Of a stretch of 64,000 nucleotides of DNA, positions 3,233-38,627 are shown one piece after another. Each line of letters begins with the position of its first letter. Position 1 is the stretch's first letter. The notes beneath the pieces are model-generated. The model was not told where the DNA came from. It made no database searches and saw nothing but the letters and a program-made list of their open reading frames with translations. Both the position numbers and the translations under genes were made by a program. This DNA comes from Patescibacteria group bacterium (GTDB lineage Bacteria; Patescibacteriota; Patescibacteriia; Magasanikbacterales; GWA2-37-8), in contig JBAZUP010000001.1 in assembly GCA_041661385.1 (NCBI GenBank), positions 7,382 to 71,381 on the forward strand. Reading direction: 5' to 3'.

Positions 3233-3597
3233 CAACTGTCGAAAGATTATTGAGGAGTTTTGCAGATGCCGGGCGAGGCGTTGTGTATGTTTTTAAAAAA
3301 GAACAAAATTTTCGCTTGCAGATTTTTGCTGGTCTAATAGTTTTTGTTACGATTTTCGTTTTACCTCTTCGCTCTTGGGAAACTATTGTTCTTATTTTAA
3401 TGGTGGTTATGGTTCTAACTATGGAACTTTTAAATACTGCTCTAGAAAATTTTACGGATTTGTTTAAACCCCGCATTCATCCGTATGTCGGCATTATTAA
3501 GGATATTATGGCGGCAGCGGTTCTCATTACTGCTCTTGGTGCTTTAGTTATTGGTAGCATTATTATTTATCCTCACTTTATCGGTTTGCTAAAATAG
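3229..3597 (+). CDS. dgkA: diacylglycerol/undecaprenol kinase family (DgkA-like)
   Basis: 122 aa, three TM segments, conserved ELLNTALE motif of the DAGK_prokar family. 4-bp overlap with ybeY. Confidence 0.7.
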   Translation: MTTVERLLRSFADAGRGVVYVFKKEQNFRLQIFAGLIVFVTIFVLPLRSWETIVLILMVVMVLTMELLNTALENFTDLFKPRIHPYVGIIKDIMAAAVLITALGALVIGSIIIYPHFIGLLK

Positions 3598-4895
3598 TGT
3601 ATAATATAGTCAGTCTGAAATGTTTTATGAGGAAAGGTTCGCAAAACTTGATTACCGGTATAGATATCGGTTCATCGGCGGTTAGACTAGCAGTTGGACA
3701 ATTTGTCCGACGTGACGGATCCGACGAAGAACTCGAATTGCAGATTTTGGGTGCAGTAGAAGCCCCGTCTTCCGGTGTAAAAAACGGCACTATCAACAGC
3801 ATCGACGATGTTGTTTCTTCGGTTTCCGCTTGTCTTGAAGAAGCTGAGCGAGTAGTAGGGAGTCCGATTAAAAGTGCTTGGGTAGGTGTTTCTGGTCACA
3901 ATATTATTTCACAGCCCAGCCGCGCCTATGTTGCGGTTTCAAAAGGTGATAACGAAATTACCAGAGAAGATGTACTTAGAGTAATAGAATCATCAAAATC
4001 GGTCGCCACACCGCTTAACTTTGAAGTTTTACACGTCTTACCAAAGAGCTTTAGTATTGACGGGCAAAGTAATATCAAAGATCCGATCGGTATGACGGGC
4101 ATGCGTCTCGAGGTTGATTCGCAAATAATTTTAGGTCCGACACCGCAAATTAAAAATTTGACCAGAGCAATCTTTCGCACCGGCCTAGAAATAGATGGAT
4201 TAGTTTTAAATATTATTGCCGCTTCAGACGCTGTTCTTACTGATCAACAAAAAGAAATTGGGGTAGTAGTTGTGAATATTGGTGTTTCAACCACCAGTCT
4301 CGTGGTTTTTGAAGAAGGGGAGATCATTCACACTGCAGTTCTCAAGGTAGGCAGTGGACACGTGACCAACGATCTTGCACTTGGTTTGCGCACGAATGTC
4401 GATGTTGCTGAGGCAATTAAAATCGAATTTGGTGATTGTGTATCGAGTAATATTAATCGCCGCGACGAAATCGACCTTCAAACTCTTGGAGCTCCGGAGC
4501 AAGAATTTGTCCGCAAGCAAATGGTGGGTGAAATTGTCGAAATGCGCATGGAAGAAATATTACAAATGATTGATGCTGATTTACGCAAAATAAATCGTAA
4601 CGGTAATTTACCGGCTGGTGCCGTATTTATTGGCGGGGGAGCGAAAATTCCACATTTGGTCGATTTAGCTCGTAAGAAATTACGATTACCAGCAATGCTT
4701 GGTTATCCGCTTGATATGATAGGTGTTTCCGATCGTATCAGTGATTTATCCTTTACTACCGCAATTGGACTGGTAAAAAATGGTGCAATGGAAAGCGTTA
4801 CCGGACCGGCTAATTCAGTTATGGGTGCGTCGCGTCGTAAAGCCGGCGGGTGGTTAAAAAAATTTGGACAGTGGTTTAAGATTTTGATTCCATGA
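3597..4895 (+). CDS. ftsA: cell division protein FtsA (actin-like ATPase)
   Basis: ITGIDIGSSAVRLAVG phosphate-1 motif and actin-fold ATPase segments. Sits immediately upstream of ftsZ. True start may be the internal M at 3627. Confidence 0.9.
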   Translation: MYNIVSLKCFMRKGSQNLITGIDIGSSAVRLAVGQFVRRDGSDEELELQILGAVEAPSSGVKNGTINSIDDVVSSVSACLEEAERVVGSPIKSAWVGVSGHNIISQPSRAYVAVSKGDNEITREDVLRVIESSKSVATPLNFEVLHVLPKSFSIDGQSNIKDPIGMTGMRLEVDSQIILGPTPQIKNLTRAIFRTGLEIDGLVLNIIAASDAVLTDQQKEIGVVVVNIGVSTTSLVVFEEGEIIHTAVLKVGSGHVTNDLALGLRTNVDVAEAIKIEFGDCVSSNINRRDEIDLQTLGAPEQEFVRKQMVGEIVEMRMEEILQMIDADLRKINRNGNLPAGAVFIGGGAKIPHLVDLARKKLRLPAMLGYPLDMIGVSDRISDLSFTTAIGLVKNGAMESVTGPANSVMGASRRKAGGWLKKFGQWFKILIP

Positions 4896-9335: not shown

Positions 9336-10964
9336 CTATTTCCAGCGCTTTACCAGGTAGGTTCTGTCCGGTTTGTAGCCTAATTTTTTATAGTAATCCT
9401 TCACGCCCACTCCTGAAATAACCGCCAGATTTTTAATTTTATTTTTTTTACAGATTTTTTCCGCTTCAATAATCAGTTTCTTGCCAAGACCTTGGTGCTG
9501 GCTTGATTGGCTGCCTTTTTTACCGATTCGAATTAACTGTCCGTAAGTATGAAGCTCGCGGATATAGGCTGGGAAAGGTGCAGTTTTATTTTTTAAGCTT
9601 ACAATTCGGAGACGACAAAAAGCAAAAACAACTTGGCGTTTTTTATCTTCAAAACTTAAAAAATATTCCGTACCGCCGGCAGTTTGGTATTTTTCTAAAA
9701 ATAATTTCGGTGTCAGGTCTTTAATCTGCGTTAAATCAACATGGCCGGCTTCACGACAACGAAGGCATCTGCAAACCAGTCCTTCGTTTTTCATTTCCTC
9801 ATGAATCACTTGGCGCAAGTTTGTTACTCGGTTACCTTCTTCAATGTGTTGACCAGGAATGTCGCGGATTAATCGTGAGATTCGCACATAGCGGGGGACT
9901 TCGCTTTTGAAAGTTTTTATAATATTTACCAAATCTTTGGTTGGATAAGCATGATACTTTCCTTGTTGAAGCCAATCATATAGTTCCGAACCTTTTACTA
10001 CAGTGCAAGGGTAAATTTTTATCATGTCAGGCCGAAGTCCGGGGTCGGAAAAAACTTCTCGCAGCATTTTTAGATCGCTTTTTGGTGTTGCACCCGGTAG
10101 TTGAGGCATTAAATGGAAATCAGTTTTAAAACCAAAATTTCTCGCGAGTTCAGTTGCCTTTTTTGCTTGTTCAATAGTATGACCGCGTTTAATTATTTTA
10201 AGTATTTTATCGTCGGTGTGTTGAACACCGATTTCAAGACGAGTGCAGCCTTGCTCGCGCATTTGCCAAAGAGTTTTTTCTGAAATACTATCCGGGCGAG
10301 TTTCAAGTGTGAGTCCAATTATTCGATGTTTGGATTTTTCGTTTATTTTTTGTTGTTTAACCAGCTCGGTTTTTATTTTTTCAAATGGAGAAGTTTCTTT
10401 TAATTTAATTTTTGTACCGTTTGCCGCCGCAAAAGATTGTAAAATAAACCAATATTGATAAGGAAGCGCATAGGCGTTCCAGGTTCCTCCTTTGACAATT
10501 AACTCTATTTTATCGGTTGGGTGGCCGTTGCGCTCAATTGATTCCAGGCGGCGTGCCATTTGTTCGTAGGGGTTAAATTTTAACGAAAGGGCGCGGCTGG
10601 CAGCTGGTTCATCGGCCAGGTAACTTTTAGGCATTCGAACGTCTAGCGGGCAATAAATGCATTCTCCGGGGCAAGGATAAGGCTTAACAAGCGACGTAAC
10701 AATGGTGACGCCGGAAAGAGTTCGAACCGAACGACGCGTTAAAAGTTTTTCCATTGCAGGGCTGGTTTTGATGCTTTTCTTTCGCAATAAGCTGTGGTAT
10801 GCTTTAAGCAAATCAGTTTTATCAGGAGTGCCTTTTGAGGTCGGAAATTGTTTTACTAAAGCTCGTTTTAACACGCTAAACTCAAGCTCATTTTTAGGGA
10901 GTTTTTTTAGAGCGGAAAATACAATTTTTTCTGCCAAATTCATAGTAAAGTTGAGTATGGACAT
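9336..10964 (-). CDS. elp3: Elp3-like radical SAM + GNAT protein (tRNA wobble-uridine carboxymethylation)
   Basis: Radical SAM cysteine motif CPGECIYCP. C-terminal GNAT acetyltransferase motif (QHQGLGKKLIEEAE). 542 aa. Start may be the M at 10943. Confidence 0.8.
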   Translation of the reverse strand: MSILNFTMNLAEKIVFSALKKLPKNELEFSVLKRALVKQFPTSKGTPDKTDLLKAYHSLLRKKSIKTSPAMEKLLTRRSVRTLSGVTIVTSLVKPYPCPGECIYCPLDVRMPKSYLADEPAASRALSLKFNPYEQMARRLESIERNGHPTDKIELIVKGGTWNAYALPYQYWFILQSFAAANGTKIKLKETSPFEKIKTELVKQQKINEKSKHRIIGLTLETRPDSISEKTLWQMREQGCTRLEIGVQHTDDKILKIIKRGHTIEQAKKATELARNFGFKTDFHLMPQLPGATPKSDLKMLREVFSDPGLRPDMIKIYPCTVVKGSELYDWLQQGKYHAYPTKDLVNIIKTFKSEVPRYVRISRLIRDIPGQHIEEGNRVTNLRQVIHEEMKNEGLVCRCLRCREAGHVDLTQIKDLTPKLFLEKYQTAGGTEYFLSFEDKKRQVVFAFCRLRIVSLKNKTAPFPAYIRELHTYGQLIRIGKKGSQSSQHQGLGKKLIIEAEKICKKNKIKNLAVISGVGVKDYYKKLGYKPDRTYLVKRWK

Positions 10965-11649
10965 TATACAGAAGACCCGCGACGATTACAATAAAATTGC
11001 CTCTTTTTTTGCAGAAACCCGCAGTCATCCGGGTGAGCTGGTACAGTTTAAACCTTTTATCGCGGACGGTCAACAGATTCTGGATTGGGGTTGCGGGAAT
11101 GGCCGGCTGCTTTACATGCTTGAAAAATTTAAAATTAATTATTTTGGCCTTGACCAAAGCAAGGGCCTTTTAAATCAAGCTGAAGCGGAACACCTCAAAC
11201 TGATAAAAAATAAAACTGCCGCATTTTTTTGCACTGCGCATCGTGAAAAAAAATTCCCGCCGGAAACTTTTGATCTAATTTTTTTAATTGCGTCATTTCA
11301 TCATTTGCCGGACAAAAAAAGCCGGCTCAAATTATTAAAAAAATTATATCAGGAATGCAAGACAGGCGGTAAAATGGTCATGACCAATTGGAATTTGGAT
11401 AGCGTCTGGGCAAAAAATAAATTAAAAATTGACTGGGAAAAAACTGGTGACGATGATTTTCTTATTCCCTGGAAAGACAAGAGCGGCAAGGTTTTAGTTA
11501 AACGGTATTATCATAATTTTCAAAGAGATGAAATTAAGGAACTCGCTGTTAAAGCTGGCTGGAAAGTGTTAAAATTATATTATTCAGATGGTCCGGGGGA
11601 GGCAAATAAAAAAACCGGTAAAAATTTGGTGTTAATCGCTGAGAAGTAA
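10957..11649 (+). CDS. class I SAM-dependent methyltransferase (Trm9/Methyltransf_11-like)
   Basis: SAM motif ILDWGCGNGRL. The ORF track's start at 10702 overlaps elp3 on the opposite strand, so the first internal ATG at 10957 (MDIIQK) is taken. Confidence 0.65.
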   Translation: MDIIQKTRDDYNKIASFFAETRSHPGELVQFKPFIADGQQILDWGCGNGRLLYMLEKFKINYFGLDQSKGLLNQAEAEHLKLIKNKTAAFFCTAHREKKFPPETFDLIFLIASFHHLPDKKSRLKLLKKLYQECKTGGKMVMTNWNLDSVWAKNKLKIDWEKTGDDDFLIPWKDKSGKVLVKRYYHNFQRDEIKELAVKAGWKVLKLYYSDGPGEANKKTGKNLVLIAEK

Positions 11650-11650
11650 T

Positions 11651-12868
11651 ATGCGTATTCTGCAAATTGAAAAATTTTTTTATAACCGAGGCGGCTCAAG
11701 TCGTGTATTTTTTGACACGATTGAAGGTTTGCGCCGCAGGGGTAATGAAGTCGCAGAATTTTCTATGCAAGACGGACGTAATTATCCGTCTAAATATGAA
11801 AAATATTTCGCTCCATCTTTGCCGGAATTAAAAAGCCGCTTAAGTTTTAGAGAACAATTTCAGGTTTTTAAGCGGTTATTTAAATCGGAAATAATTGAAA
11901 CCAAACTAACAAATTTAATTGATGATTTTAAACCAGAAGTCGCGCACATTCATAATGCCTATCATCACTTATCTGCCAGCACGTTTATTACTCTTCAGAA
12001 AAAAAATGTTCCGGTAGTTTTAACATTGCACGATGTTTTTCCGCTCTGTCCGAATCACAGCTTATTAATAGGGGAAACACTTGGCGAAAAAGAGCTAAAA
12101 AATAATTTATTCAATTGTCTTCGTTATAAATGCGTCGACGGAAAATTTTTACCAAGCCTCGCCGGGGTATTTGAGGCGCTTTATTATCGGTATCATGGGG
12201 TTTGGAAAAATATTAAAATTTTTATTTGCCCAAGTCAGTTTATGGCCGATAAAATGGTGGAGTATGGTTTTGCGCGTGAAAAGATGCGCGTCATTCGTAA
12301 TCCATTTGTGGTTACACCGTCAGTTTTGCCATTGGGAGATAAAGTTGTCTATCTTGGCCGTTTACATCATGAAAAGGGGATAAAAGTATTTCTTCGTGCC
12401 GCGGAAAAACTTCGAGATTTGCAGCTCGTTGTAGCTGGCAGCGGACAAGATGAAAATTGGGTGAATAATTTTTTGAAGGAAAAAAAATTAAATAATGTTG
12501 AAAGAGTTGGTTGGGTCAGCGGGGAAAAATGGAAACAAATAATGAACGAAGCACGGGTGGTGGTAGTACCGTCGGTATTTTTAGAAAATTGTTCAGTAAG
12601 TATTTTAGAAGCGTTAAGCCACGGCCGATTGGTAGTTGCTAGTGACCGAGGGGGAAATCCGGAAATGATTATTAACGGCAAGACCGGATTTTTATGTCGC
12701 CCAGAAGATCCAGATGACCTTGCTCGCGCAATTCGTGAGGCGATAGAATTACCCGATGCGGAAGCGCAAAGAATGATTGCTTTTGGTCGAGAATTAGTTG
12801 AAACAAATCATAATCCTACAAATTATTTTACGAAATTAAAAGGGGTTTATAATGAAGTAATTAAATAA
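11651..12868 (+). CDS. glycosyltransferase family 4
   Basis: GT-B fold with C-terminal EX7E-type motif region (EALSHGRLVVASDRGGNPEMI). Confidence 0.8.
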   Translation: MRILQIEKFFYNRGGSSRVFFDTIEGLRRRGNEVAEFSMQDGRNYPSKYEKYFAPSLPELKSRLSFREQFQVFKRLFKSEIIETKLTNLIDDFKPEVAHIHNAYHHLSASTFITLQKKNVPVVLTLHDVFPLCPNHSLLIGETLGEKELKNNLFNCLRYKCVDGKFLPSLAGVFEALYYRYHGVWKNIKIFICPSQFMADKMVEYGFAREKMRVIRNPFVVTPSVLPLGDKVVYLGRLHHEKGIKVFLRAAEKLRDLQLVVAGSGQDENWVNNFLKEKKLNNVERVGWVSGEKWKQIMNEARVVVVPSVFLENCSVSILEALSHGRLVVASDRGGNPEMIINGKTGFLCRPEDPDDLARAIREAIELPDAEAQRMIAFGRELVETNHNPTNYFTKLKGVYNEVIK

Positions 12869-13090
12869 AGGGACTTGTTTTACGACTCAATATCCCTGTG
12901 GATAACCCTTTGACCGTTTTTTCCATTCAGCGTATAGTTAATCTCAGTATAAAAATATGAACTTAAATTACACCCGAAATAATGTAGCAATTAAGTTGGC
13001 AGTCGCTGCTGCCTTGCTTCAAGCTATTTGTTTTATCTCGGGTGAACATAGTTCAAATCTTGCCTAAAAGATTATATCGAACCAAATTCA

Positions 13091-13116
13091 CCCGAGATAA
13101 TATCTCGGGTTTTTTT
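13091..13116 (+). terminator. rho-independent terminator (also the 3' arm of an attenuator-like structure)
   Basis: Hairpin cccgagata-a-tatctcggg followed by TTTTTTT. Confidence 0.6.
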
Positions 13117-13225
13117 ATAACGTAAGAATCGGCCAGAAAGGATAATTTTGCATTTTGGCCGGTCCTTAAGTTAATAGGGCCAAAACCTACCCCAGTGGCG
13201 GGGTAAACCAGGGAGGTAGTACGTA

Positions 13226-13618
13226 ATGTGCGAAAATTCTGTTGAGGCAACTCTTCACCGTACGCTGCTGAGCAGGCACACCGCTCAGTCGAGACTCTCG
13301 CATTACGAGGGTTCACCCGAAGAGCTCAGGGAGCTCGCGCGGGTCGCCTGGCTGTTCGCCGGGTCAAGGCCGGGCAAGTTGCCCGACACGGTCGTTCTTT
13401 CCGGCGGCATTCCGCCGACCGGTTTCTTCAGTAAGGATGGTGCGACTCGCACCACCCACGGGATGCTGAAGCCCGAGGCGGTACGCGTGGACATCATCGT
13501 GCTCATCACGAAGCGGGGCGCCTGCAAGGGCGCTGCCGAGATCCAGGTCATCGATTTCCAGGCCTGGGATTCCGAGGTCTGGGAGACGCAGAAGGCACGC
13601 AGTGCCGTAGCCGCCTAA
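13226..13618 (+). CDS. hypothetical protein encoded in GC-rich island 1 (foreign-looking)
   Basis: ~60% GC with strong GC3 periodicity in this frame only. Strong SD GGGAGG 9 nt upstream of the ATG. No family recognised. Confidence 0.45.
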   Translation: MCENSVEATLHRTLLSRHTAQSRLSHYEGSPEELRELARVAWLFAGSRPGKLPDTVVLSGGIPPTGFFSKDGATRTTHGMLKPEAVRVDIIVLITKRGACKGAAEIQVIDFQAWDSEVWETQKARSAVAA

Positions 13619-13790
13619 GGGCGGCAAAAAAAGGTCTGGCGAAGCCTTGTCCGGTTCTTAATAAAAGAACTGACCAAATTCGCCGCATCATTGGCTACCG
13701 ATATTATTATCGATATCCATCGTGCAAACAAGGTTTCTAAATGGTGACGGTTTGCTTTTTTTTTGCTATAATAGGCGTATTAGAAACTCT

Positions 13791-14714
13791 ATGTGGCTTT
13801 CCGTTGCGTTTATTGGCTATGCGTGTCTCGCTGTAGTCTCCATTCTTGATAAATTCATTCTCTCCAAAGAGAAAATTCTTCCGTCCGTTTTTGTATTTTA
13901 TTCTACAATTTTTCTTTTACCGCTCAACTTTGCGGTATTTTTTCTGTCTGCTCGTCCATCGATTTATGTTTCTGGCGTGATAATTTTGTCTGCGGCGGCT
14001 TTTTCGTTTGGACTTTGGACAATGTACCGCGCTTTTGAAAAAAGTGAAGTTAGCCACATGGGTCCTTTTATCGGCGGGCTTATTCCGTTGTTTATTCTCG
14101 TTTTAGGACAGATTTTTTTACCAGAATTCATTACTACCAAACAAGTTATTGGGATCTTGCTCCTCAGTTTTGGCACGATTACCATTTCAATTCAAAAAAA
14201 CATGGGGCGATATTGGAAAAATAGTATTATCTGGGCGTTGGTTGCAGCGGTCTCATTTTCTATTTCTCACATTTCATCCAAATATGTTTATTCCGCAGTC
14301 GGTTTTGGAGCGGGCTTTACCTATATTTGGGGTGCAATGGGTTTTGTCGGGTTAGCGCTGTTATTTACAAAAAATGTTCAGTCAGCAGTTTTTCCTCATC
14401 GCAATATAATTATTTCATTAAAAAACAAAATTTCTTTTCAACATAATAAATCTAAACATCAGGTGGTCGTGGTTGCATCCGACAAGGTGCTTAGCGCGGT
14501 TGGTTCGCTTTCAATTCAATATGCAGTATCGCTTGGCAGTGTTACCAAGGTGTATGCGCTGAGTGGCGCGCAGTATGCTTTTCTAATTTTATTAGTATTT
14601 ATTTTGTCTAGATTTTTTCCGAAAATTTTTCGAGAAAAATATGACGATGGTGAAGTTTATCGTGAATTGATAGCAGTAATTATTATTGCTGTTGGTCTAG
14701 CTTTTTTGGTTTAA
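13791..14714 (+). CDS. polytopic membrane protein, DMT/EamA-like transporter
   Basis: ~10 hydrophobic segments, ~300 aa. Extended -10 (TGcTATAAT at 13764-13772) 19 nt upstream of the ATG at 13791. The track's upstream start at 13722 is a GTG. Confidence 0.5.
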   Translation: MWLSVAFIGYACLAVVSILDKFILSKEKILPSVFVFYSTIFLLPLNFAVFFLSARPSIYVSGVIILSAAAFSFGLWTMYRAFEKSEVSHMGPFIGGLIPLFILVLGQIFLPEFITTKQVIGILLLSFGTITISIQKNMGRYWKNSIIWALVAAVSFSISHISSKYVYSAVGFGAGFTYIWGAMGFVGLALLFTKNVQSAVFPHRNIIISLKNKISFQHNKSKHQVVVVASDKVLSAVGSLSIQYAVSLGSVTKVYALSGAQYAFLILLVFILSRFFPKIFREKYDDGEVYRELIAVIIIAVGLAFLV

Positions 14715-15749: not shown

Positions 15750-15823
15750 TGCGCGCTGGGGGATTCGAACCCTCGACCCCCTCGGTGTAAACGAGGTGCT
15801 CTAACCAACTGAGCTAAGCGCGC
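15750..15823 (-). tRNA. tRNA-Val (anticodon TAC)
   Basis: Reverse complement folds as a cloverleaf. Acceptor stem GCGCGCT/AGCGCGC. Anticodon stem CCTCG/CGAGG with loop TTTACAC. TTCGAAT T-loop. No encoded CCA. Confidence 0.85.
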
Positions 15824-17090: not shown

Positions 17091-17717
17091 AATAGCGCGG
17101 CCTCAGCCGCGCTTTTTTTGTTTTTATTTTATAATAAATATCGCCTTGTCGGGCGGATGTTCGCTACCCCATTTGTGCAAACAAACGGGGTAGCACCCCA
17201 AAATTGCCGAGCTAGCTGTTCGGCTCCGCAACTCACATCAGCTCAACGAGCTGTGGCGCAGAACTCGTCGCTTGACACTCCTCAAACAGCTGCACCACCC
17301 ACGCTCGTTTTCACTGTGTCGAGTTGTGTCACCTCACATGCGCTCGGAACCGAACGTTGGCTAATTACCAACTGGTGACCGAGCCTATACGTAGTGAGTT
17401 GCAAACTACCCGAGGAAATTAGATTTTTTCAATGTGATTATGCTGATTTGAAAAAATCTAATTTCGCCGGCCATTTATTCTCGTTCCACAAAGGCTCGGA
17501 GGTGAATTGTTGGTAATTGGCCAACAACGGGGGTTTGGGGAAGTCGATATCCCGAGTTCTCGCGAACGAGTGGTTATATCGACGATCTCCCCAAAACCTT
17601 TGGTTACTTTCAGTTATGAAAGTAACATTGAGAATAATTTAAGAGAAAATAGAGTAAACATCGCGATAGCGATAAGATGTATTTAAATATAAATAGCGAG
17701 GCTGAGGCCGCGCTATT
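17091..17717 (+). repeat. intergenic modular repeat, copy A (~627 bp, flanked by 22-bp terminal inverted repeats)
   Basis: Left end aatagcgcggcctcagccgcgc, right end gcgaggctgaggccgcgctatt (reverse complement, 1 mismatch). Shares modules M1-M4 with copies B and C. Confidence 0.6.
17095..17119 (+). terminator. terminator hairpin gcgcgg-cctcag-ccgcgc + T7; also the left terminal inverted repeat of repeat copy A
   Basis: Perfect 6-bp GC stem followed by TTTTTTT directly after the permease stop. Confidence 0.6.
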
Positions 17718-17738
17718 ATAATAATTAATTAAATTTGT

Positions 17739-19505
17739 TTATGGTGTGACGATTGCTCCGTTCTTAAATCCTTTATCTGTATTCGGAAGAATGTTTGAAG
17801 TATTATTCAGTTTAATATTAAATTCTTTACCAACCTCATCATCAATTCCGTAATAGGTTGTTGCCGAAATTAAGTTTAAAATATATCCGGCCTGTTCAGC
17901 TTTGGGGGTCACAGACACTTCAAAATAGAATCCGCTTTCACTGTCCGCAGGTACAGCGCTGTCATAAGTCCAGCTCATAGTTCGGTTTGCCTGGTTAAAA
18001 ATCAATTCAGGCCCGATTGTTACGCTTTGTTTCCCGGTAAAGGTGACTCCGGGAGCTAGGGTAAAAATTAAGCGATTGCCACGCAGGGAATTTATTTTGT
18101 CAAAAAGGGTAGTGAATATCCAATATTTGGTTGTTTTGCCAACCTGTGGGGGTAGAAGTCCGCGGCCTAACTGGTCACCTTCATCGGTATAATATCTCGC
18201 CACACTGCGTAGAAATACTTCGGCGGAAAGGGAAATGCTCGTTGCGGATCCGTCGGTTGTAAAAGCTTGCCCCGGCATATCGGCTGCTTCGGCTTCAAAT
18301 ACAGGTTTGATTGTTAGGGTCTTTATTCCGGATGCTTTTTTGTCGAAGTTTGGAAGCAAATATATTTTTATATCAAATTGATCGCCCGAATTTGGTTTGC
18401 CATCGGACAGGGTTGTGCGAGTTTTTTCATTAATTATCAGGTTGTTGCCATCTTTGGTTAGGTGGTTTTCGGTGGCAGTAAGAGCGAGGTCGACTACGCC
18501 AGGTGTGGTTTGGATAATAATCTTTTGGTTTTTTAATGAAAACTGGCTATCATTTTTCCACATTATTCTCACTGGTAAAATTGAAAGCGGTTCCGCATAG
18601 GGTGGAGCTTCTTGCAGTCTGGTCGAAAGAGTAATTCGCGGACTAAACAATTCTAGCCGGTTTTTTTGAGTGCTTTGAATAAAAGTTTTTCCATTAATAA
18701 TCACTCTGGTGTCTGCAGTAAATAGATAATTTCCTCCTTTGGTCGGAGTAAAGAATGTTTCTGAGTAGGAAGTGGTGGCATTTGGAGGTAGTTCAAATAC
18801 CTTATCTATCATTTTTCCGTTAATGTTTAATCGGATATCAGACAGGGTAATATTTCCGGTATTTATTAAATCTACTGAATAGGGTATTTTTTGATTAGAA
18901 AAAGTTTTTGATGGTGAGTTGAGGGTCGCGTGCAAAACGCTGTCTGTAAGAGTGAGTAAATAAATACCAGAAGATTGATCAATATTTGTATTTCCTTCGG
19001 GCTTAAATGAAAGAGTTGCAATTAATTTTTCTGTTTCATTAATATTAGACCAAAGCGTTCCATAGATATCGGCAGAACCGTGGCTTCCGGGCGGAAGGGA
19101 GCCGATTGTAATGGTGTGGTTTTTGAGATCAAGATTAGAAGTGAGTTTTTCGTCAACAATAAACCCCTGAGGTAATCGCAAGGCAAGAATCGCGTTATTA
19201 AGATTTTGTTTGCTGTTGTTTGTATAGTCGATAGAAAGATGTACCGGACTGCCGCTTTTTATTCGTTCTGATCCAAGTGATATAGAAATAGCTACTTCAC
19301 TTCCAATACTGGGTTTCCATGTGAAAAAGAAAGCGCTGCTGCCGAACATTAAAATGGCAAATCCAAGTAGAAACATGTCAAACACAAATAGTTGTTTGGC
19401 GTGTTCATAAACACCGTGATACTTGCGGTGGTAATGGTTATGAAAGAAATTGTAGATAGCTTTAATCATTTGATTGATATTATACCTTACTCCTCGTGCA
19501 AACAA
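17739..19505 (-). CDS. membrane-anchored large extracellular protein (hypothetical, beta-rich)
   Basis: N-terminal TM (LLGFAILMFGSSAFFFTW) then ~520 aa of S/T/N-rich domain. Same operon as the HTH gene. Confidence 0.5.
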   Translation of the reverse strand: MFARGVRYNINQMIKAIYNFFHNHYHRKYHGVYEHAKQLFVFDMFLLGFAILMFGSSAFFFTWKPSIGSEVAISISLGSERIKSGSPVHLSIDYTNNSKQNLNNAILALRLPQGFIVDEKLTSNLDLKNHTITIGSLPPGSHGSADIYGTLWSNINETEKLIATLSFKPEGNTNIDQSSGIYLLTLTDSVLHATLNSPSKTFSNQKIPYSVDLINTGNITLSDIRLNINGKMIDKVFELPPNATTSYSETFFTPTKGGNYLFTADTRVIINGKTFIQSTQKNRLELFSPRITLSTRLQEAPPYAEPLSILPVRIMWKNDSQFSLKNQKIIIQTTPGVVDLALTATENHLTKDGNNLIINEKTRTTLSDGKPNSGDQFDIKIYLLPNFDKKASGIKTLTIKPVFEAEAADMPGQAFTTDGSATSISLSAEVFLRSVARYYTDEGDQLGRGLLPPQVGKTTKYWIFTTLFDKINSLRGNRLIFTLAPGVTFTGKQSVTIGPELIFNQANRTMSWTYDSAVPADSESGFYFEVSVTPKAEQAGYILNLISATTYYGIDDEVGKEFNIKLNNTSNILPNTDKGFKNGAIVTP

Positions 19506-19514
19506 AAACTCCCC

Positions 19515-19895
19515 TTATTGAAGTGGGGGAGTTGGTTTGTTGTTTAAAACTGGGGGAACAGCCGGTTTGTTTGTTTCACCGGTTTCAGTCGGTAATTTTG
19601 GTTTTATAGACTTTGGGTTGGGGGAGTAGAGTGGGTTCTTTATTTTCCACTTATCCACATATTGTCCAATACCTTTTTTAAGCAATTTGTTTTTTACGGT
19701 GGTATGTCGTTGTGACCATTTAACTAAGCTTTCAAAATTAAGTTTATATCGTCCGGAAACTACCACATAAGTTACTTCCTGAGATCGTATTGCACGACGG
19801 ATTGTTTGCGAATTAACACCAAAAAGCCGGGCTGCCTCGGATATAGATACCCGAATTAGCTCTTTCTGCTCTTTGTTATTTATGTCTTCGGCCAT
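19515..19895 (-). CDS. helix-turn-helix DNA-binding protein (excisionase/MerR-like HTH) with Pro-rich tail
   Basis: HTH segment ISEAARLFGVNSQTIRRAI. Start taken at the ATG at 19895 (MAEDINN); the track's start at 19940 would overlap the operator. Confidence 0.55.
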   Translation of the reverse strand: MAEDINNKEQKELIRVSISEAARLFGVNSQTIRRAIRSQEVTYVVVSGRYKLNFESLVKWSQRHTTVKNKLLKKGIGQYVDKWKIKNPLYSPNPKSIKPKLPTETGETNKPAVPPVLNNKPTPPLQ

Positions 19896-19901
19896 AGTAT
19901 T

Positions 19902-19930
19902 TGTACACGGTTGTATACGATAGTGTATAC
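19902..19930. promoter_or_regulatory. operator-like palindrome array: tgtacacggttgtatacgatagtgtataca
   Basis: Three TGTAYACR half-site palindromes directly upstream of the HTH gene start. Confidence 0.45.
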
Positions 19931-19988
19931 ATCCTAGCATAAAATCGATTATTTGTCAAGGGGTAAGGCATTAAAAATATTTTATGTT

Positions 19989-20008
19989 TGTATACAATAT
20001 TGTATACA
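19989..20008. promoter_or_regulatory. operator-like site tgtatacaatattgtataca
   Basis: Two TGTATACA palindromes 4 bp apart. Confidence 0.45.
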
Positions 20009-20069
20009 AACTTTAATACAAAATGGCTAAAATAAGCGATTCACATTTGAAAAAATATGGCATTTTTTT

Positions 20070-20089
20070 TGTATACAATAGCGTATACA
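20070..20089. promoter_or_regulatory. operator-like site tgtatacaatagcgtataca
   Basis: Near-identical copy of the 19989 site. Confidence 0.45.
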
Positions 20090-20097
20090 AATATCAA

Positions 20098-20470
20098 ATA
20101 TGCGCGGCCTCAGCCGCGCTATTTTTTTATATCGCCCTGTCGGGCGGATGTTCGCTACCCCATTTGTGCAAACAAACGGGGTAGCACCCCAAAATTGCCT
20201 CGCAGTTGTTTCACTCGACAAATGTCACGTCGAAATCAAAACGATTTTTTCAAAGGTGCATAGTCGCATTGAAAAAATCTAATTTCGCCGGCCATTTGCT
20301 CTCGTTCCACAAAGGCTCGGGGGGACATTTGTTGGCCAACCAGTGGGGGTTTGGGGGCCGCCAGCTGTTTGAGGAGCTCGCGCGACGAGTTCTGCCGGCC
20401 CCCAGAACCTTTTGATTACTTTTCAGTTATGAAAAGTGATGCCGCCGGCAGGGCTAAGGAAATAAGTATT
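20098..20470 (+). repeat. intergenic modular repeat, copy B
   Basis: Starts with the same gcgcggcctcagccgcgc hairpin + T-run. ~95% identity to copy A over module M1. Shares M2-M4 with compensatory stem differences. Confidence 0.6.
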
Positions 20471-37923: not shown

Positions 37924-38042
37924 TTGATTTTACGCATAAATTAGCTAAAAAGTCAGGTTTAACCTTGATTTTTTTGCTATTTTAGGGTATTATTATTGGT
38001 CTTTTGGCCACTCTCGGCCGAAAGCAAACCAGGAGAGAATCC

Positions 38043-38627
38043 GTGAATTCCGAATCGCTGAACCAGCAGGTGTGGGTCGCCGTGACCAGACTCACCGCCC
38101 TTTTCAAGGGCGATCCAAACGGCGAGGAAGCTGTGAAGAATGCTTTGGCTCAGTTGCTCCGACTGGTGGATCCCTCGAAGCCCTACGGCACGGTGCTGTT
38201 TGACAGTCTCTCCAGGCTCACTTGGAGCATCGCCTTCGAGGGCGTTGCTCTCCGGTTGAATCCGAAGACCAAGAAGCCCGAGGTCTTCCTCAGGAAGCGT
38301 GCCGACGATGACACGGCCTATCCTGGGGAGTGGCATGCCCCCGGTTCGGCCTTCCGTCCCCGGGAGAAGCCAAACCTCGTCGCGAGGCGTCTCTCTCGTG
38401 AGTTCGGGTCCGAGATCATGGACTTCAAGCTGGTGGGGCAGTACTTCTCCAACGAGCAGAGAGGCGACTTCTTGTCGCTCATCTACCTCGTGAAGTTCGA
38501 CGGCGAGCCCCGCGTCGACAACCGGCACATCTGGTGTCCGGTCGACAAGCTGCCGGAGAATACGGTCAACATTCACCGGGATCACCTCATCCCGGCTGCG
38601 GTCGCTGCATATCGCTCGTCTCACTAG
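38043..38627 (+). CDS. Nudix hydrolase resembling GDP-mannose mannosyl hydrolase (Gmm/NudD/WcaH), encoded in GC-rich island 2
   Basis: ~60% GC with GC3 periodicity on the + strand. AGGAGA SD 6 nt before GTG 38043; the track's TTG is at 38004. Modified Nudix box GEWHAPGSAFRPREKPNLVARRLSREFG aligns position-by-position with the Gmm box [29 protein letters not shown]. Confidence 0.5.
   Translation: MNSESLNQQVWVAVTRLTALFKGDPNGEEAVKNALAQLLRLVDPSKPYGTVLFDSLSRLTWSIAFEGVALRLNPKTKKPEVFLRKRADDDTAYPGEWHAPGSAFRPREKPNLVARRLSREFGSEIMDFKLVGQYFSNEQRGDFLSLIYLVKFDGEPRVDNRHIWCPVDKLPENTVNIHRDHLIPAAVAAYRSSH

What the first reader, a model, noticed from the sequence alone, without database searches (positions are those of the whole stretch)
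13120..13660. GC-rich island 1 with a strongly SD-initiated 130-aa ORF of unknown function
A second ~500-bp segment at ~60% GC lies between the GT4 gene and the DMT transporter. The ORF 13226-13618 has GGGAGG 9 nt upstream of its ATG and ~85% GC3 in its distal two-thirds. I could not recognise RNase P, tmRNA or SRP RNA motifs here. The product has no family I recognise. Two foreign-looking islands in 64 kb suggest ongoing uptake from high-GC neighbours.
Basis: seen in the sequence. Interest (0 to 1): 0.5.

Follow-up and report, generated by a model that had tools for sequence, protein, structure and literature searches.

The report
GC-rich small gene behind attenuator
The GC-rich patch is a real 130-aa gene, a short relative of the uncharacterised DUF3228 proteins, sitting in a variable slot behind a conserved RNA switch in related Patescibacteria, so it is an old resident that stays GC-rich, not a fresh import.

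Summary
Window 13226-13618(+) is an ORF with GC 0.63 and GC3 0.77, in a genome with GC 0.395 and mean host GC3 0.35. GGGAGG lies 9 nt before the ATG, and no Rfam family matches.

It is a real protein. About 13 homologues exist, and the AlphaFold model has pLDDT 92. A profile comparison with DUF3228 (PF11539) gives 99.3% probability (E 1e-20). The best structural match is 2pd0. Weaker matches are RelE/BrnT/CdiA-type RNase toxins.

The "uptake from high-GC neighbours" reading is not supported:
- Nine of the ten family contexts I examined are low-GC, Patescibacteria-like contigs or fragments. Six or seven of them are the same slot as here: leader, then cassette, then the EamA transporter.
- Flanking genes are 57-77% identical between these genomes. 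The ORF homologues are only 27-49% identical, yet all stay GC-rich.
- More distant relatives hold unrelated GC-rich small ORFs in the slot.

Upstream lies a conserved unit not in Rfam. It has a DnaA-box-like site, a promoter, a 30-38-codon ORF, and mutually exclusive antiterminator and terminator helices. This unit probably gates read-through into the ORF.

Biochemical function is unknown. My best guess is an RNA- or nucleotide-directed, conflict-type protein. Why the GC content persists is unexplained.

The parts
12897..12905 (-). Perfect DnaA-box consensus (TTATCCACA; TGTGGATAA on + strand), 4 nt upstream of the -35 hexamer
   Evidence: one of only 3 perfect boxes in 64 kb. GTGGATAA is present at the same place in all 9 related loci, and TGTGGATAA in 8 of them. 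A role for DnaA is inferred, not tested.
12910..12938 (+). Sigma-70-type promoter TTGACC-17-TATAGT of the leader
   Evidence: 10/12 match. Conserved in L010, L019, L049 and L050. No other promoter-like site lies between it and the ORF.
12945..13120 (+). Conserved structured leader RNA. seg1 is 12971-12982, the central hairpin is about 13003-13020, seg2 is 13033-13046, seg3 is 13087-13100, and the terminator is 13090-13110 plus T7. The pairings 1:2, 2:3 and 3:4 are mutually exclusive.
   Evidence: Inverted repeats I3, I1 and I6. Terminator scan. RNAalifold on 9 loci gives 25 pairs, 12 with compensatory changes. The seg2:seg3 duplex is -15 to -23 kcal/mol at the same position in 9/9 loci. Covariance model R1 scores 135.9 bits here and finds only this one copy in the window. 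No Rfam family matches.
12957..13067 (+). Small ORF inside the leader (36 aa, MNLNYTRNNVAIKLAVAAALLQAICFISGEHSSNLA), a possible leader peptide
   Evidence: An ORF of 30-38 codons is retained at the same place in 9/9 loci. Codon-position identity is 0.47/0.52/0.45, only weakly coding-like. seg1 and seg2 lie inside it.
13118..13225 (+). 5' UTR of the ORF, with hairpins and SD GGGAGG at 13211-13216
   Evidence: The 3' part, CCCC..GGGGTAAAC(C/A)AGGGAGGTAG(T/C)ACG, is shared with L020, upstream of P0004.
13226..13618 (+). The GC-rich ORF: a 130-aa short-form DUF3228-superfamily protein (NCBI: hypothetical protein WC725_00075, Patescibacteria group bacterium)
   Evidence: (pLDDT 92.1)
13610..13632 (+). 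Hairpin GCCGCC-TAAG-GGCGGC holding the stop codon in its loop, followed by A7
   Evidence: It is not a canonical terminator.
13638..13686 (+). Conserved 3' stem-loop GGCGAA-[variable inner hairpin]-ATTCGCCGC
   Evidence: The same outer stem, with different and internally complementary inner hairpins, follows the homologues in L019 and L050. In those loci a 95-98-aa second gene comes next; the window has none.
13744..13772 (+). Own promoter of the downstream EamA transporter gene (ATG 13791), marking the right border of the slot
   Evidence: EamA is identified by Pfam. Orthologues were used to find the slot in 27 metagenome loci.

Best explanation
SHOWN: 13226-13618 is a genuine protein-coding gene. 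Its product is a compact alpha/beta protein that is a remote, C-terminally truncated homologue of DUF3228 (PF11539; solved example 2pd0). SHOWN: it sits in a slot between a conserved leader and the EamA transporter gene. The slot is shared by a clade of Patescibacteria and its content varies. Some genomes hold this family alone. Some hold this family plus an unrelated 95-113-aa ORF. Some hold entirely different small ORFs. All of these are GC-richer than the host genome. INFERRED: transcription starts at the conserved promoter at 12910-12938, which abuts a DnaA-box-like site. It runs into a structured leader whose seg2 (GGGTGAA) can pair either with seg1 or with the 5' arm of an intrinsic terminator. 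Only transcripts that form the seg2:seg3 antiterminator read through into the ORF. The ORF is then translated from its strong SD. Either translation of the 36-codon leader ORF, which covers seg1 and seg2, or a bound ligand would set the switch. INFERRED, low confidence: the protein acts on RNA or a nucleotide, and has a conflict-type role (toxin or effector). This rests on its fold neighbours, its rapid evolution and the variable partner genes. The island is therefore not a recent import from a high-GC neighbour. It is a long-standing, lineage-restricted, fast-evolving cassette. Its GC-rich composition is either replenished from a GC-rich cassette pool circulating among Patescibacteria, which I lean to slightly, or held by selection on codon choice or mRNA properties.
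Confidence: 0.55

Rival explanations
1. Recent horizontal acquisition of a single gene from a high-GC neighbour such as an actinobacterial host. On this view the GC-rich composition is simply unameliorated donor DNA.
For: GC is 0.63 against 0.395. Codon usage is inverted. Amino-acid composition is also GC-type: GARP 0.32 against 0.21, and FYMINK 0.15 against 0.33. A published survey finds frequent HGT in Patescibacteria (PMC12455944).
Against: No homologue was seen in a high-GC contig among 1.84 billion representatives, and none in phage or plasmid collections. The gene occupies the same slot in genomes whose flanking genes are only 57-77% identical. The 5' UTR and 3' stem-loop are shared between loci. 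There are no mobility genes or clear target duplications at the borders. The same paper reports that most transfers are between Patescibacteria.
Confidence: 0.08
2. The gene is vertically inherited, and its GC-rich codon usage is held by selection. One version is translational gating: exclusive NNG/NNC codons would be read efficiently only when tRNA wobble-U34 is modified by the Elp3 and methyltransferase genes encoded two genes upstream. Other versions are mRNA stability, or resistance to an A/U-specific RNase, possibly the protein's own activity.
For: GC3 is about 0.8 whatever the host GC of 0.36-0.50, despite saturated divergence. AAA, CAA, TTA and GGA codons are absent from both islands. 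A true Elp3 (TIGR01211, 523 bits) plus a class I methyltransferase are syntenic in the window, L010 and L049. The MFE is about twice as negative per nucleotide as for host genes.
Against: The synteny with Elp3 is seen only within one clade, so it is not independent evidence. NUDIX islands lie elsewhere in their genomes. Amino-acid composition is also GC-shifted, which synonymous selection alone does not explain. Synonymous-shuffle z-scores are ordinary at -1 to -2.3, and the controls reach -2.8. The tRNA complement is unknown.
Confidence: 0.25
3. The segment is a structured non-coding RNA and the ORF is incidental.
For: A GC-rich patch in an AT-rich genome is typical of RNA genes. The dinucleotide-shuffle z-score is -4.3 on the + strand for 13120-13680.
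Against: No Rfam match. There is strong codon periodicity. Protein-level homologues have 27-49% identity, conserved motifs and a confident fold. With synonymous shuffles the z-score is only -2.3, within the range of control genes.
Confidence: 0.02
4. Assembly chimera or contaminating read pile-up from a high-GC organism.
For: The composition changes abruptly at both edges.
Against: The sequence and flanks are identical in three independent assemblies. Homologous GC-rich genes occupy the same slot in other genomes.
Confidence: 0.01

Closest known systems
DUF3228 (Pfam PF11539; structure 2pd0, Cryptosporidium parvum cgd2_2020)
   Same: The two are homologous over about 107-130 N-terminal residues (hhalign 99.3%, E 1.2e-20). 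They share the motifs R-x-x-T/S...S-H-F/W...E-E-L...P-x-G-F-F...K-x-x-A-x-x-V-D. 2pd0 is the best structural match. Function is unknown for both. A binding-site comparison once suggested a purine-nucleoside pocket in 2pd0 (PMC3892921).
   Different: The window protein does not reach the Pfam model at all. It lacks the internal insertion and the roughly 55-residue C-terminal region with the conserved N...GGT motif. Full-length DUF3228 in large viral contigs has near-host GC and no leader.
BECR / RelE-ParE-fold RNase toxins (BrnT, YxiD-CT, CdiA-CT, MafB, RelE, HigB, colicin D/E5)
   Different: There is no sequence similarity and no TA or defence HMM hit. Foldseek finds the similarity not significant. 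The window has no partner gene. Catalytic residues are not identified.
Terminator/antiterminator leaders (leader-peptide attenuators such as trpL, and OFF riboswitches)
   Same: A promoter is followed by about 170 nt holding four segments with mutually exclusive 1:2, 2:3 and 3:4 pairings, an intrinsic terminator, and then the regulated gene. A short ORF overlaps seg1 and seg2.
   Different: No Rfam family matches it. There is no run of regulatory codons in the small ORF. The effector, whether ribosome, ligand or protein, is unknown. The genes regulated differ between genomes.
Integron-like gene cassette arrays / hypervariable defence hot spots
   Same: One conserved promoter-proximal slot holds different, promoterless, single small ORFs in related genomes, each followed by a hairpin.
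   Different: No integrase or other recombinase lies nearby. No attC-type core sites were identified. The arrays hold only 1-3 ORFs. The cassettes are GC-richer than the host.

Membership tests
DUF3228 (PF11539) | Match to the Pfam HMM at or above its gathering score | tested here: not met
   There is no Pfam hit for the window protein at E<=0.1. Only 1 of 13 family members touches PF11539, at E 0.13.
DUF3228 (PF11539) | Homology detectable by profile methods | tested here: met
   The family profile finds PF11539-annotated proteins at E 1e-9 to 1e-11. hhalign gives 99.3% probability and E 1.2e-20.
DUF3228 (PF11539) | Same fold as the solved member 2pd0 | tested here: met
DUF3228 (PF11539) | Full-length architecture of about 185-220 aa, with the conserved C-terminal region (N146, G152-G153-T154 in P0019 numbering) | tested here: not met
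   The window protein ends at a position equivalent to about residue 133. The C-terminal region and the internal insertion are absent.
RelE/ParE-BECR RNase toxins (type II TA or polymorphic toxin modules) | Characteristic fold | tested here: inconclusive
RelE/ParE-BECR RNase toxins (type II TA or polymorphic toxin modules) | Adjacent cognate antitoxin or immunity gene | tested here: not met
   No second ORF lies between 13118 and 13790 on the coding strand. Relatives have a second ORF, but these are mostly unrelated to each other.
RelE/ParE-BECR RNase toxins (type II TA or polymorphic toxin modules) | Match to known toxin or defence HMMs | tested here: not met
   PADLOC, Pfam, NCBIfam and PHROGs give no hit.
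RelE/ParE-BECR RNase toxins (type II TA or polymorphic toxin modules) | RNase activity or growth inhibition | not testable with these tools
   This needs expression and biochemical assays.
Known structured RNAs (RNase P, tmRNA, SRP RNA, any Rfam family) | Covariance-model match at gathering score | tested here: not met
Recently acquired genomic island | Deviant composition | tested here: met
Recently acquired genomic island | Patchy presence among close relatives, an identifiable donor, and mobility genes or flanking repeats | tested here: not met
   The gene is present at the same slot in diverged relatives. No donor was found. There is no recombinase nearby. The only flanking repeat is a 12-nt imperfect direct repeat that may be chance.
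Transcription attenuator / riboswitch-type leader | Promoter, an intrinsic terminator and a mutually exclusive antiterminator, conserved with covariation, upstream of the regulated ORF | tested here: met
Transcription attenuator / riboswitch-type leader | A defined signal (stalling codons or a ligand) and demonstrated conditional termination | not testable with these tools
   This needs Term-seq or in-vitro transcription.
Integron gene cassette | attC recombination site and an IntI integrase | not tested
   No integrase-like ORF lies in the neighbourhood. The 3' stem-loop was not compared with attC models.

The most novel reading that the evidence does not exclude
A clade of Patescibacteria keeps a dedicated expression slot. 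It consists of a DnaA-box promoter and a previously undescribed terminator/antiterminator leader. Small, fast-evolving genes are swapped into this slot, and they are deliberately GC-rich. Their NNG/NNC-only codon usage (or the very stable mRNA that results) would be part of the mechanism. One version is translation gated by the neighbouring Elp3-type tRNA U34 modification. Another is immunity of the transcript to the A/U-directed RNase it encodes. On this reading the GC island is a functional signature of a new kind of regulated conflict or effector cassette system, not a relic of transfer.
Probability: 0.15. Interest if true: 0.8.

Novelty: new variant of a known kind. Interest (0 to 1): 0.5.

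Why it matters
There are three reasons.

1. It corrects a tempting inference. A sharp GC island in a low-GC symbiont-type genome is not necessarily fresh DNA from a high-GC host. Here the same gene family stays at GC3 of about 0.8 in the same slot across genomes whose neighbouring genes have diverged by 25-45%. Neutral amelioration cannot explain that.

2. It gives DUF3228 a compact bacterial branch of about 125 aa, a confident model and a set of core conserved residues. DUF3228 is otherwise an orphan family found in eukaryotes and large viral contigs.

3. It exposes a conserved regulatory RNA, absent from Rfam, in front of a hypervariable locus in Patescibacteria. Almost nothing is known about regulation or inter-genomic conflict in this group. 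If the composition proves to be selected, it would be a clean natural case of codon- or mRNA-level gating.

Tried and rejected
- Rfam at gathering and permissive thresholds, on the window and on 12 related loci: only tRNAs and chance-level hits, such as manA-II at 22 bits against a 100-bit cutoff.
- Shared mobile-element ends between the two islands: the flanks do not align convincingly, and the TTTTGGCC enrichment is genome-wide.
- Pfam, NCBIfam, PHROGs and PADLOC on the ORF, its homologues and the partner ORFs: no usable hit.
- PDB sequence search with the family profile: nothing.
- BFVD viral fold library: nothing significant. The AFDB library was not available.
- GT4-based scan of representative genomes: only distant paralogues, with no orthologous locus.
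- Viral-contig scan with the close subfamily: nothing. The scan with DUF3228 found 16 large viral contigs but no conserved neighbour that would hint at function.
- GenBank phages and PLSDB plasmids by tblastn: no match.
- Extra mRNA structure in the CDS, tested with synonymous-codon shuffles: z is -1 to -2.3 in most copies, against controls of +0.5 to -2.8. It is therefore rejected as the explanation of the GC content (the first attempt timed out).
- A common antitoxin-like partner: the partners are not homologous to each other, except L019/L050 at E 1e-5.
- Literature searches for DUF3228/PF11539: nothing beyond one binding-site prediction for 2pd0. No paper describing GC-rich mini-islands in CPR genomes was found.

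Full report
**1. The observation**

The window is 39.5% GC. Between about 13150 and 13625 the GC content rises to 0.60-0.76 in 50-nt steps. The ORF at 13226-13618(+) encodes 130 aa. It has GC 0.63, and GC at codon positions 1/2/3 is 0.61/0.50/0.76. GC3 reaches 0.87-0.93 in the distal blocks.

The 51 host ORFs of at least 200 aa average GC3 0.35, with a maximum of 0.52. Codon choice is inverted. AAA:AAG is 1112:333 in host genes and 0:17 in the two islands. TTT:TTC is 878:172 against 1:13. The amino-acid composition is also GC-shifted: GARP is 0.32 against 0.21.

GGGAGG at 13211-13216 lies 9 nt before the ATG. Rfam finds only tRNA-Val at 15750-15823 in the window, and nothing credible in 12850-13850. 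ARAGORN finds no tmRNA.

The same sequence with its flanks is 100% identical in two other independent assemblies. NCBI holds it as a hypothetical protein of a Patescibacteria group bacterium, on a 778,751-bp contig. It is not an assembly artefact.

**2. It is a protein**

A word-indexed search found only the protein itself. An exhaustive HMMER scan of 1.84 billion representatives found 15 hits. Two of these (P0002, P0007) are low-complexity repeat proteins and are spurious. The other 13, counting the query itself, are 121-200 aa.

These share several motifs: L..RH...S..SHF.GT.EEL, P.GFF, KP.A..VD, and in one subgroup ID.QAW. With this 13-sequence alignment, AlphaFold gives pLDDT 92.1 and pTM 0.82. 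The fold is alpha/beta, with a five- to six-stranded sheet.

Dinucleotide shuffles of the whole 561-nt region suggested a structured RNA (z -4.3). Shuffling synonymous codons within the CDS gives only z -2.3. Homologues give -1 to -3.6, and ordinary host genes range from +0.5 to -2.8. There is therefore no evidence for a special RNA structure in the coding part beyond what GC content alone gives.

**3. What family**

No curated model hits the ORF. The family profile reaches proteins annotated PF11539 (DUF3228) at E 1e-9 to 1e-11. The short members P0010, P0014 and P0016 align with the first ~125 residues of those proteins at 36-42% identity.

The window protein is thus a short form of the DUF3228 superfamily. 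It lacks the internal insertion and the ~55-residue C-terminal region. It does not meet the Pfam threshold.

DUF3228 has no known function. The only published hint I found is a weak binding-site similarity of 2pd0 to purine nucleoside phosphorylase pockets (PMC3892921).

**4. Where the homologues live**

I looked up ten family members. Seven sit behind the same conserved leader, and six of those seven are in the window's gene neighbourhood.

- L049: Elp3-like radical SAM(-), methyltransferase, GT4, leader, P0011, a 105-aa ORF, EamA, glycoside hydrolase.
- L010: Elp3, methyltransferase, leader, P0015.
- L019: leader, P0003, a 95-aa ORF, EamA.
- L018: leader, P0017, a 113-aa ORF, EamA.
- L048: a 105-aa ORF, P0006, EamA.
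- L050: leader, P0005, a 98-aa ORF.
- L017: a 5'-truncated leader, then P0012 and two more GC-rich ORFs.
- L020 starts in the leader's T-run and shares the 5' UTR.
- Only P0014 (L011-L016) lies elsewhere, next to PNP and PRT genes.

The neighbours are 57-77% identical to the window's: GT4 77%, EamA 57-59%, methyltransferase 58-60%, Elp3 69%. The ORF homologues are only 27-49% identical.

Wherever enough flank was present to compare, the gene is GC-richer than its surroundings: 0.51-0.66 against 0.35-0.53. The level is about 0.6 regardless of host GC.

I then fetched 27 metagenome loci through EamA orthologues of 38-61% identity. None encodes the family. Several of them have other GC-elevated small ORFs immediately upstream of EamA:

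- a 113-aa ORF in L021
- a 56-aa zinc-ribbon ORF in L022
- 84-aa and 127-aa ORFs in L025 and L026

L041 has a further unrelated ~86-aa ORF starting MCEKN. In L021, L022 and L041 these ORFs lie behind the same leader. The slot is therefore conserved, and its content turns over.

**5. The leader**

Upstream of the island, nine loci share a unit that I had not been asked about. Its elements, in window coordinates, are:

- a DnaA-box sequence (TGTGGATAA, 12897-12905; GTGGATAA in all nine loci, the full nine bases in eight), 4-5 nt before a -35 TTGACC
- a -10 hexamer
- an ORF of 30-38 codons (12957-13067)
- an intrinsic terminator (13090-13110 plus T7)

In the window the segments 12971-82, 13033-46/54, 13079/87-13100 and 13101-10 can pair 1:2, 2:3 or 3:4. 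RNAalifold on the nine loci predicts the 1:2 helix, a central hairpin and the terminator. Twelve of its 25 pairs have compensatory changes. For example, the central stem is AAGGTAA/TTACCTT in most loci, GGCAG/CTGCC in the window and GGCGG/CCGCC in L049.

The alternative 2:3 helix forms at the same position in all nine loci. Its energy is -15 to -23 kcal/mol, and it uses different extension sequences in different loci. In seven loci, 0-3 of 300 shuffles do as well.

A covariance model (R1) scores the nine loci at 83-167 bits. It additionally finds the truncated copy in L017, and it finds only one copy in the window. No Rfam family matches in any locus.

No promoter-like site lies between the terminator and the ORF. 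I therefore infer that the ORF is expressed by read-through. The signal is unknown. Because seg1 and seg2 lie inside the small ORF, ribosome position could decide the fold. But the codon-position conservation is only weakly coding-like (0.47/0.52/0.45). A ligand- or protein-controlled switch is equally possible.

After the ORF there is a hairpin that carries the stop codon in its loop. It is followed by a stem-loop, GGCGAA-[variable hairpin]-ATTCGCCGC (13638-13686). L019 and L050 share this stem-loop. In those two loci a weakly related 95-98-aa second gene follows it. The window has none.

**6. The second island**

The ORF at 38043-38627 is a NUDIX-domain protein. It has about 30 homologues of 40-60% identity. 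One is in another Patescibacteria genome. There it is again a GC island (0.61 against about 0.44, GC3 0.80), but at a different site, between trmD and khpA/rpsP, and with its own promoter.

The phenomenon is therefore not restricted to one slot or one family. Again no high-GC donor is visible.

**7. Interpretation**

- Shown: it is a real gene and a remote short DUF3228 homologue. It lies in a conserved slot with variable content. A conserved terminator/antiterminator leader precedes it. The GC-richness is persistent.
- Inferred: expression is conditional on read-through, and DnaA may have some input.
- Inferred with low confidence (about 0.3): the protein acts on RNA or a nucleotide and has a conflict-type role. 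This rests on the fold neighbours, the rapid evolution and the variable partners.
- Against a classical toxin reading: there is no partner here, no HMM hit, and DUF3228 occurs as a lone gene in phages.

Neighbours that are 57-77% identical imply saturation at silent sites, so a neutral relic cannot keep GC3 at 0.8.

Two explanations remain that I cannot separate:

- Repeated replacement from a GC-rich cassette pool circulating among Patescibacteria. A published survey reports that most HGT in Patescibacteria comes from other Patescibacteria (PMC12455944). I lean slightly to this one, because unrelated genes in the slot, and NUDIX genes elsewhere in the genome, share the same composition.
- Selection on codon choice or mRNA properties. 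Elp3 (TIGR01211, 523 bits) and a methyltransferase lie two genes upstream. From memory of the yeast literature, xcm5U34 side chains help U34 tRNAs read G-ending codons. That would make an all-NNG gene modification-dependent. This is a lead, not a result.

**8. Novelty and score**

The protein is a new short variant of a known, uncharacterised superfamily. Several things appear undescribed: the leader, the variable slot, and the maintained compositional contrast. I base this on Rfam and the literature I could search.

Interest is 0.5. The biochemical function is unknown, and part of the story is ordinary, since this is a hypothetical small gene. But the persistence of GC3 at about 0.8 in a GC3 0.35 genome, at an orthologous locus behind a new RNA switch, would surprise a specialist, and it is directly testable.

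Noticed in passing
window 12945-13120 (also L010, L017, L018, L019, L021, L022, L041, L049, L050): A conserved structured leader of about 175 nt, with mutually exclusive anti-antiterminator, antiterminator and terminator helices showing compensatory changes. No Rfam family matches it. It looks like a candidate new cis-regulatory RNA or attenuator of Patescibacteria.
   Followed up: yes
window 12897-12905: A perfect DnaA-box consensus sits 4 nt upstream of the -35 hexamer of the leader promoter. GTGGATAA is kept at the same place in all nine related loci, and the full nine bases in eight. This suggests DnaA, or a factor with a similar site, controls the promoter.
   Followed up: partly
window 12957-13067: A 36-codon ORF lies inside the leader. 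A 30-38-codon ORF is retained in 9/9 loci, with the loose pattern M..(N/S)H....K(K)V.Y(I/L)TFI....(R/W)GE(Y/N).F. Part of this conservation coincides with RNA helices, so translation is uncertain.
   Followed up: partly
window 38004-38627 (probable start GTG 38043); L051 5001-5582: The second GC-rich island encodes a NUDIX-domain protein. A 56%-identical homologue in another Patescibacteria genome is again a GC island (GC3 0.80), at a different genomic site.
   Followed up: partly
window 17138-20323: A segment of about 3 kb is bracketed by 71-nt direct repeats (99% identical; 17138-17208 and 20129-20199) and by a second 55-nt repeat pair. It carries a 588-aa ORF with no family hit and a 141-aa excisionase-type HTH protein on the minus strand. 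It is probably a small integrated element.
   Followed up: partly
window 13226-13231; L019, L020, L022, L041, L050 cassette starts: Many slot ORFs begin with Met-Cys even when the proteins are unrelated: MCEN here, and MCDV, MCKN, MCES, MCMKEC, MCEKN elsewhere. The start region may be a conserved junction, or an N-terminal Cys may matter.
   Followed up: no
C-termini of P0001, P0003-P0006, P0008, P0012 and the 105-aa ORF of L048: Seven of 13 family members, and one neighbouring ORF, end in Ala-Ala (...VAA...RAA...MAA...SAA...PAA...AAA). This is reminiscent of ssrA-like C-terminal degrons.
   Followed up: no
window 9336-11649: A bona fide bacterial Elp3 (radical SAM + GNAT; TIGR01211, 523 bits) is divergently paired with a class I SAM methyltransferase. 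The pair is syntenic with the slot in L010 and L049.
   Followed up: partly
window 13638-13686; L019 about 789-827; L050 about 1486-1533: A conserved 3' stem-loop, GGCGAA-[variable inner hairpin]-ATTCGCCGC, follows the ORF. In L019 and L050 it separates the ORF from a weakly related 95-98-aa second gene that the window lacks.
   Followed up: partly
window 13081-13092 and 13673-13684: A 12-nt imperfect direct repeat (ACCAAATTCACC / ACCAAATTCGCC) brackets the island. One copy is at the 5' arm of the terminator and the other in the 3' stem-loop. It could be chance or a recombination core.
   Followed up: no
L007, L052-L067: Full-length DUF3228 genes occur in large viral contigs of up to ~530 kb, and in a T4-like contig next to a tRNA nucleotidyltransferase-type gene. 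No conserved neighbour was found.
   Followed up: partly
L041 cassette about 3575-3835; P0009 residues 55-65; L049 3849-4166: A short motif, (E/R)LPCxC, recurs in an unrelated slot ORF, in the N-terminal extension of family member P0009, and in the 105-aa partner ORF of L049. This hints at shuffled modules.
   Followed up: no
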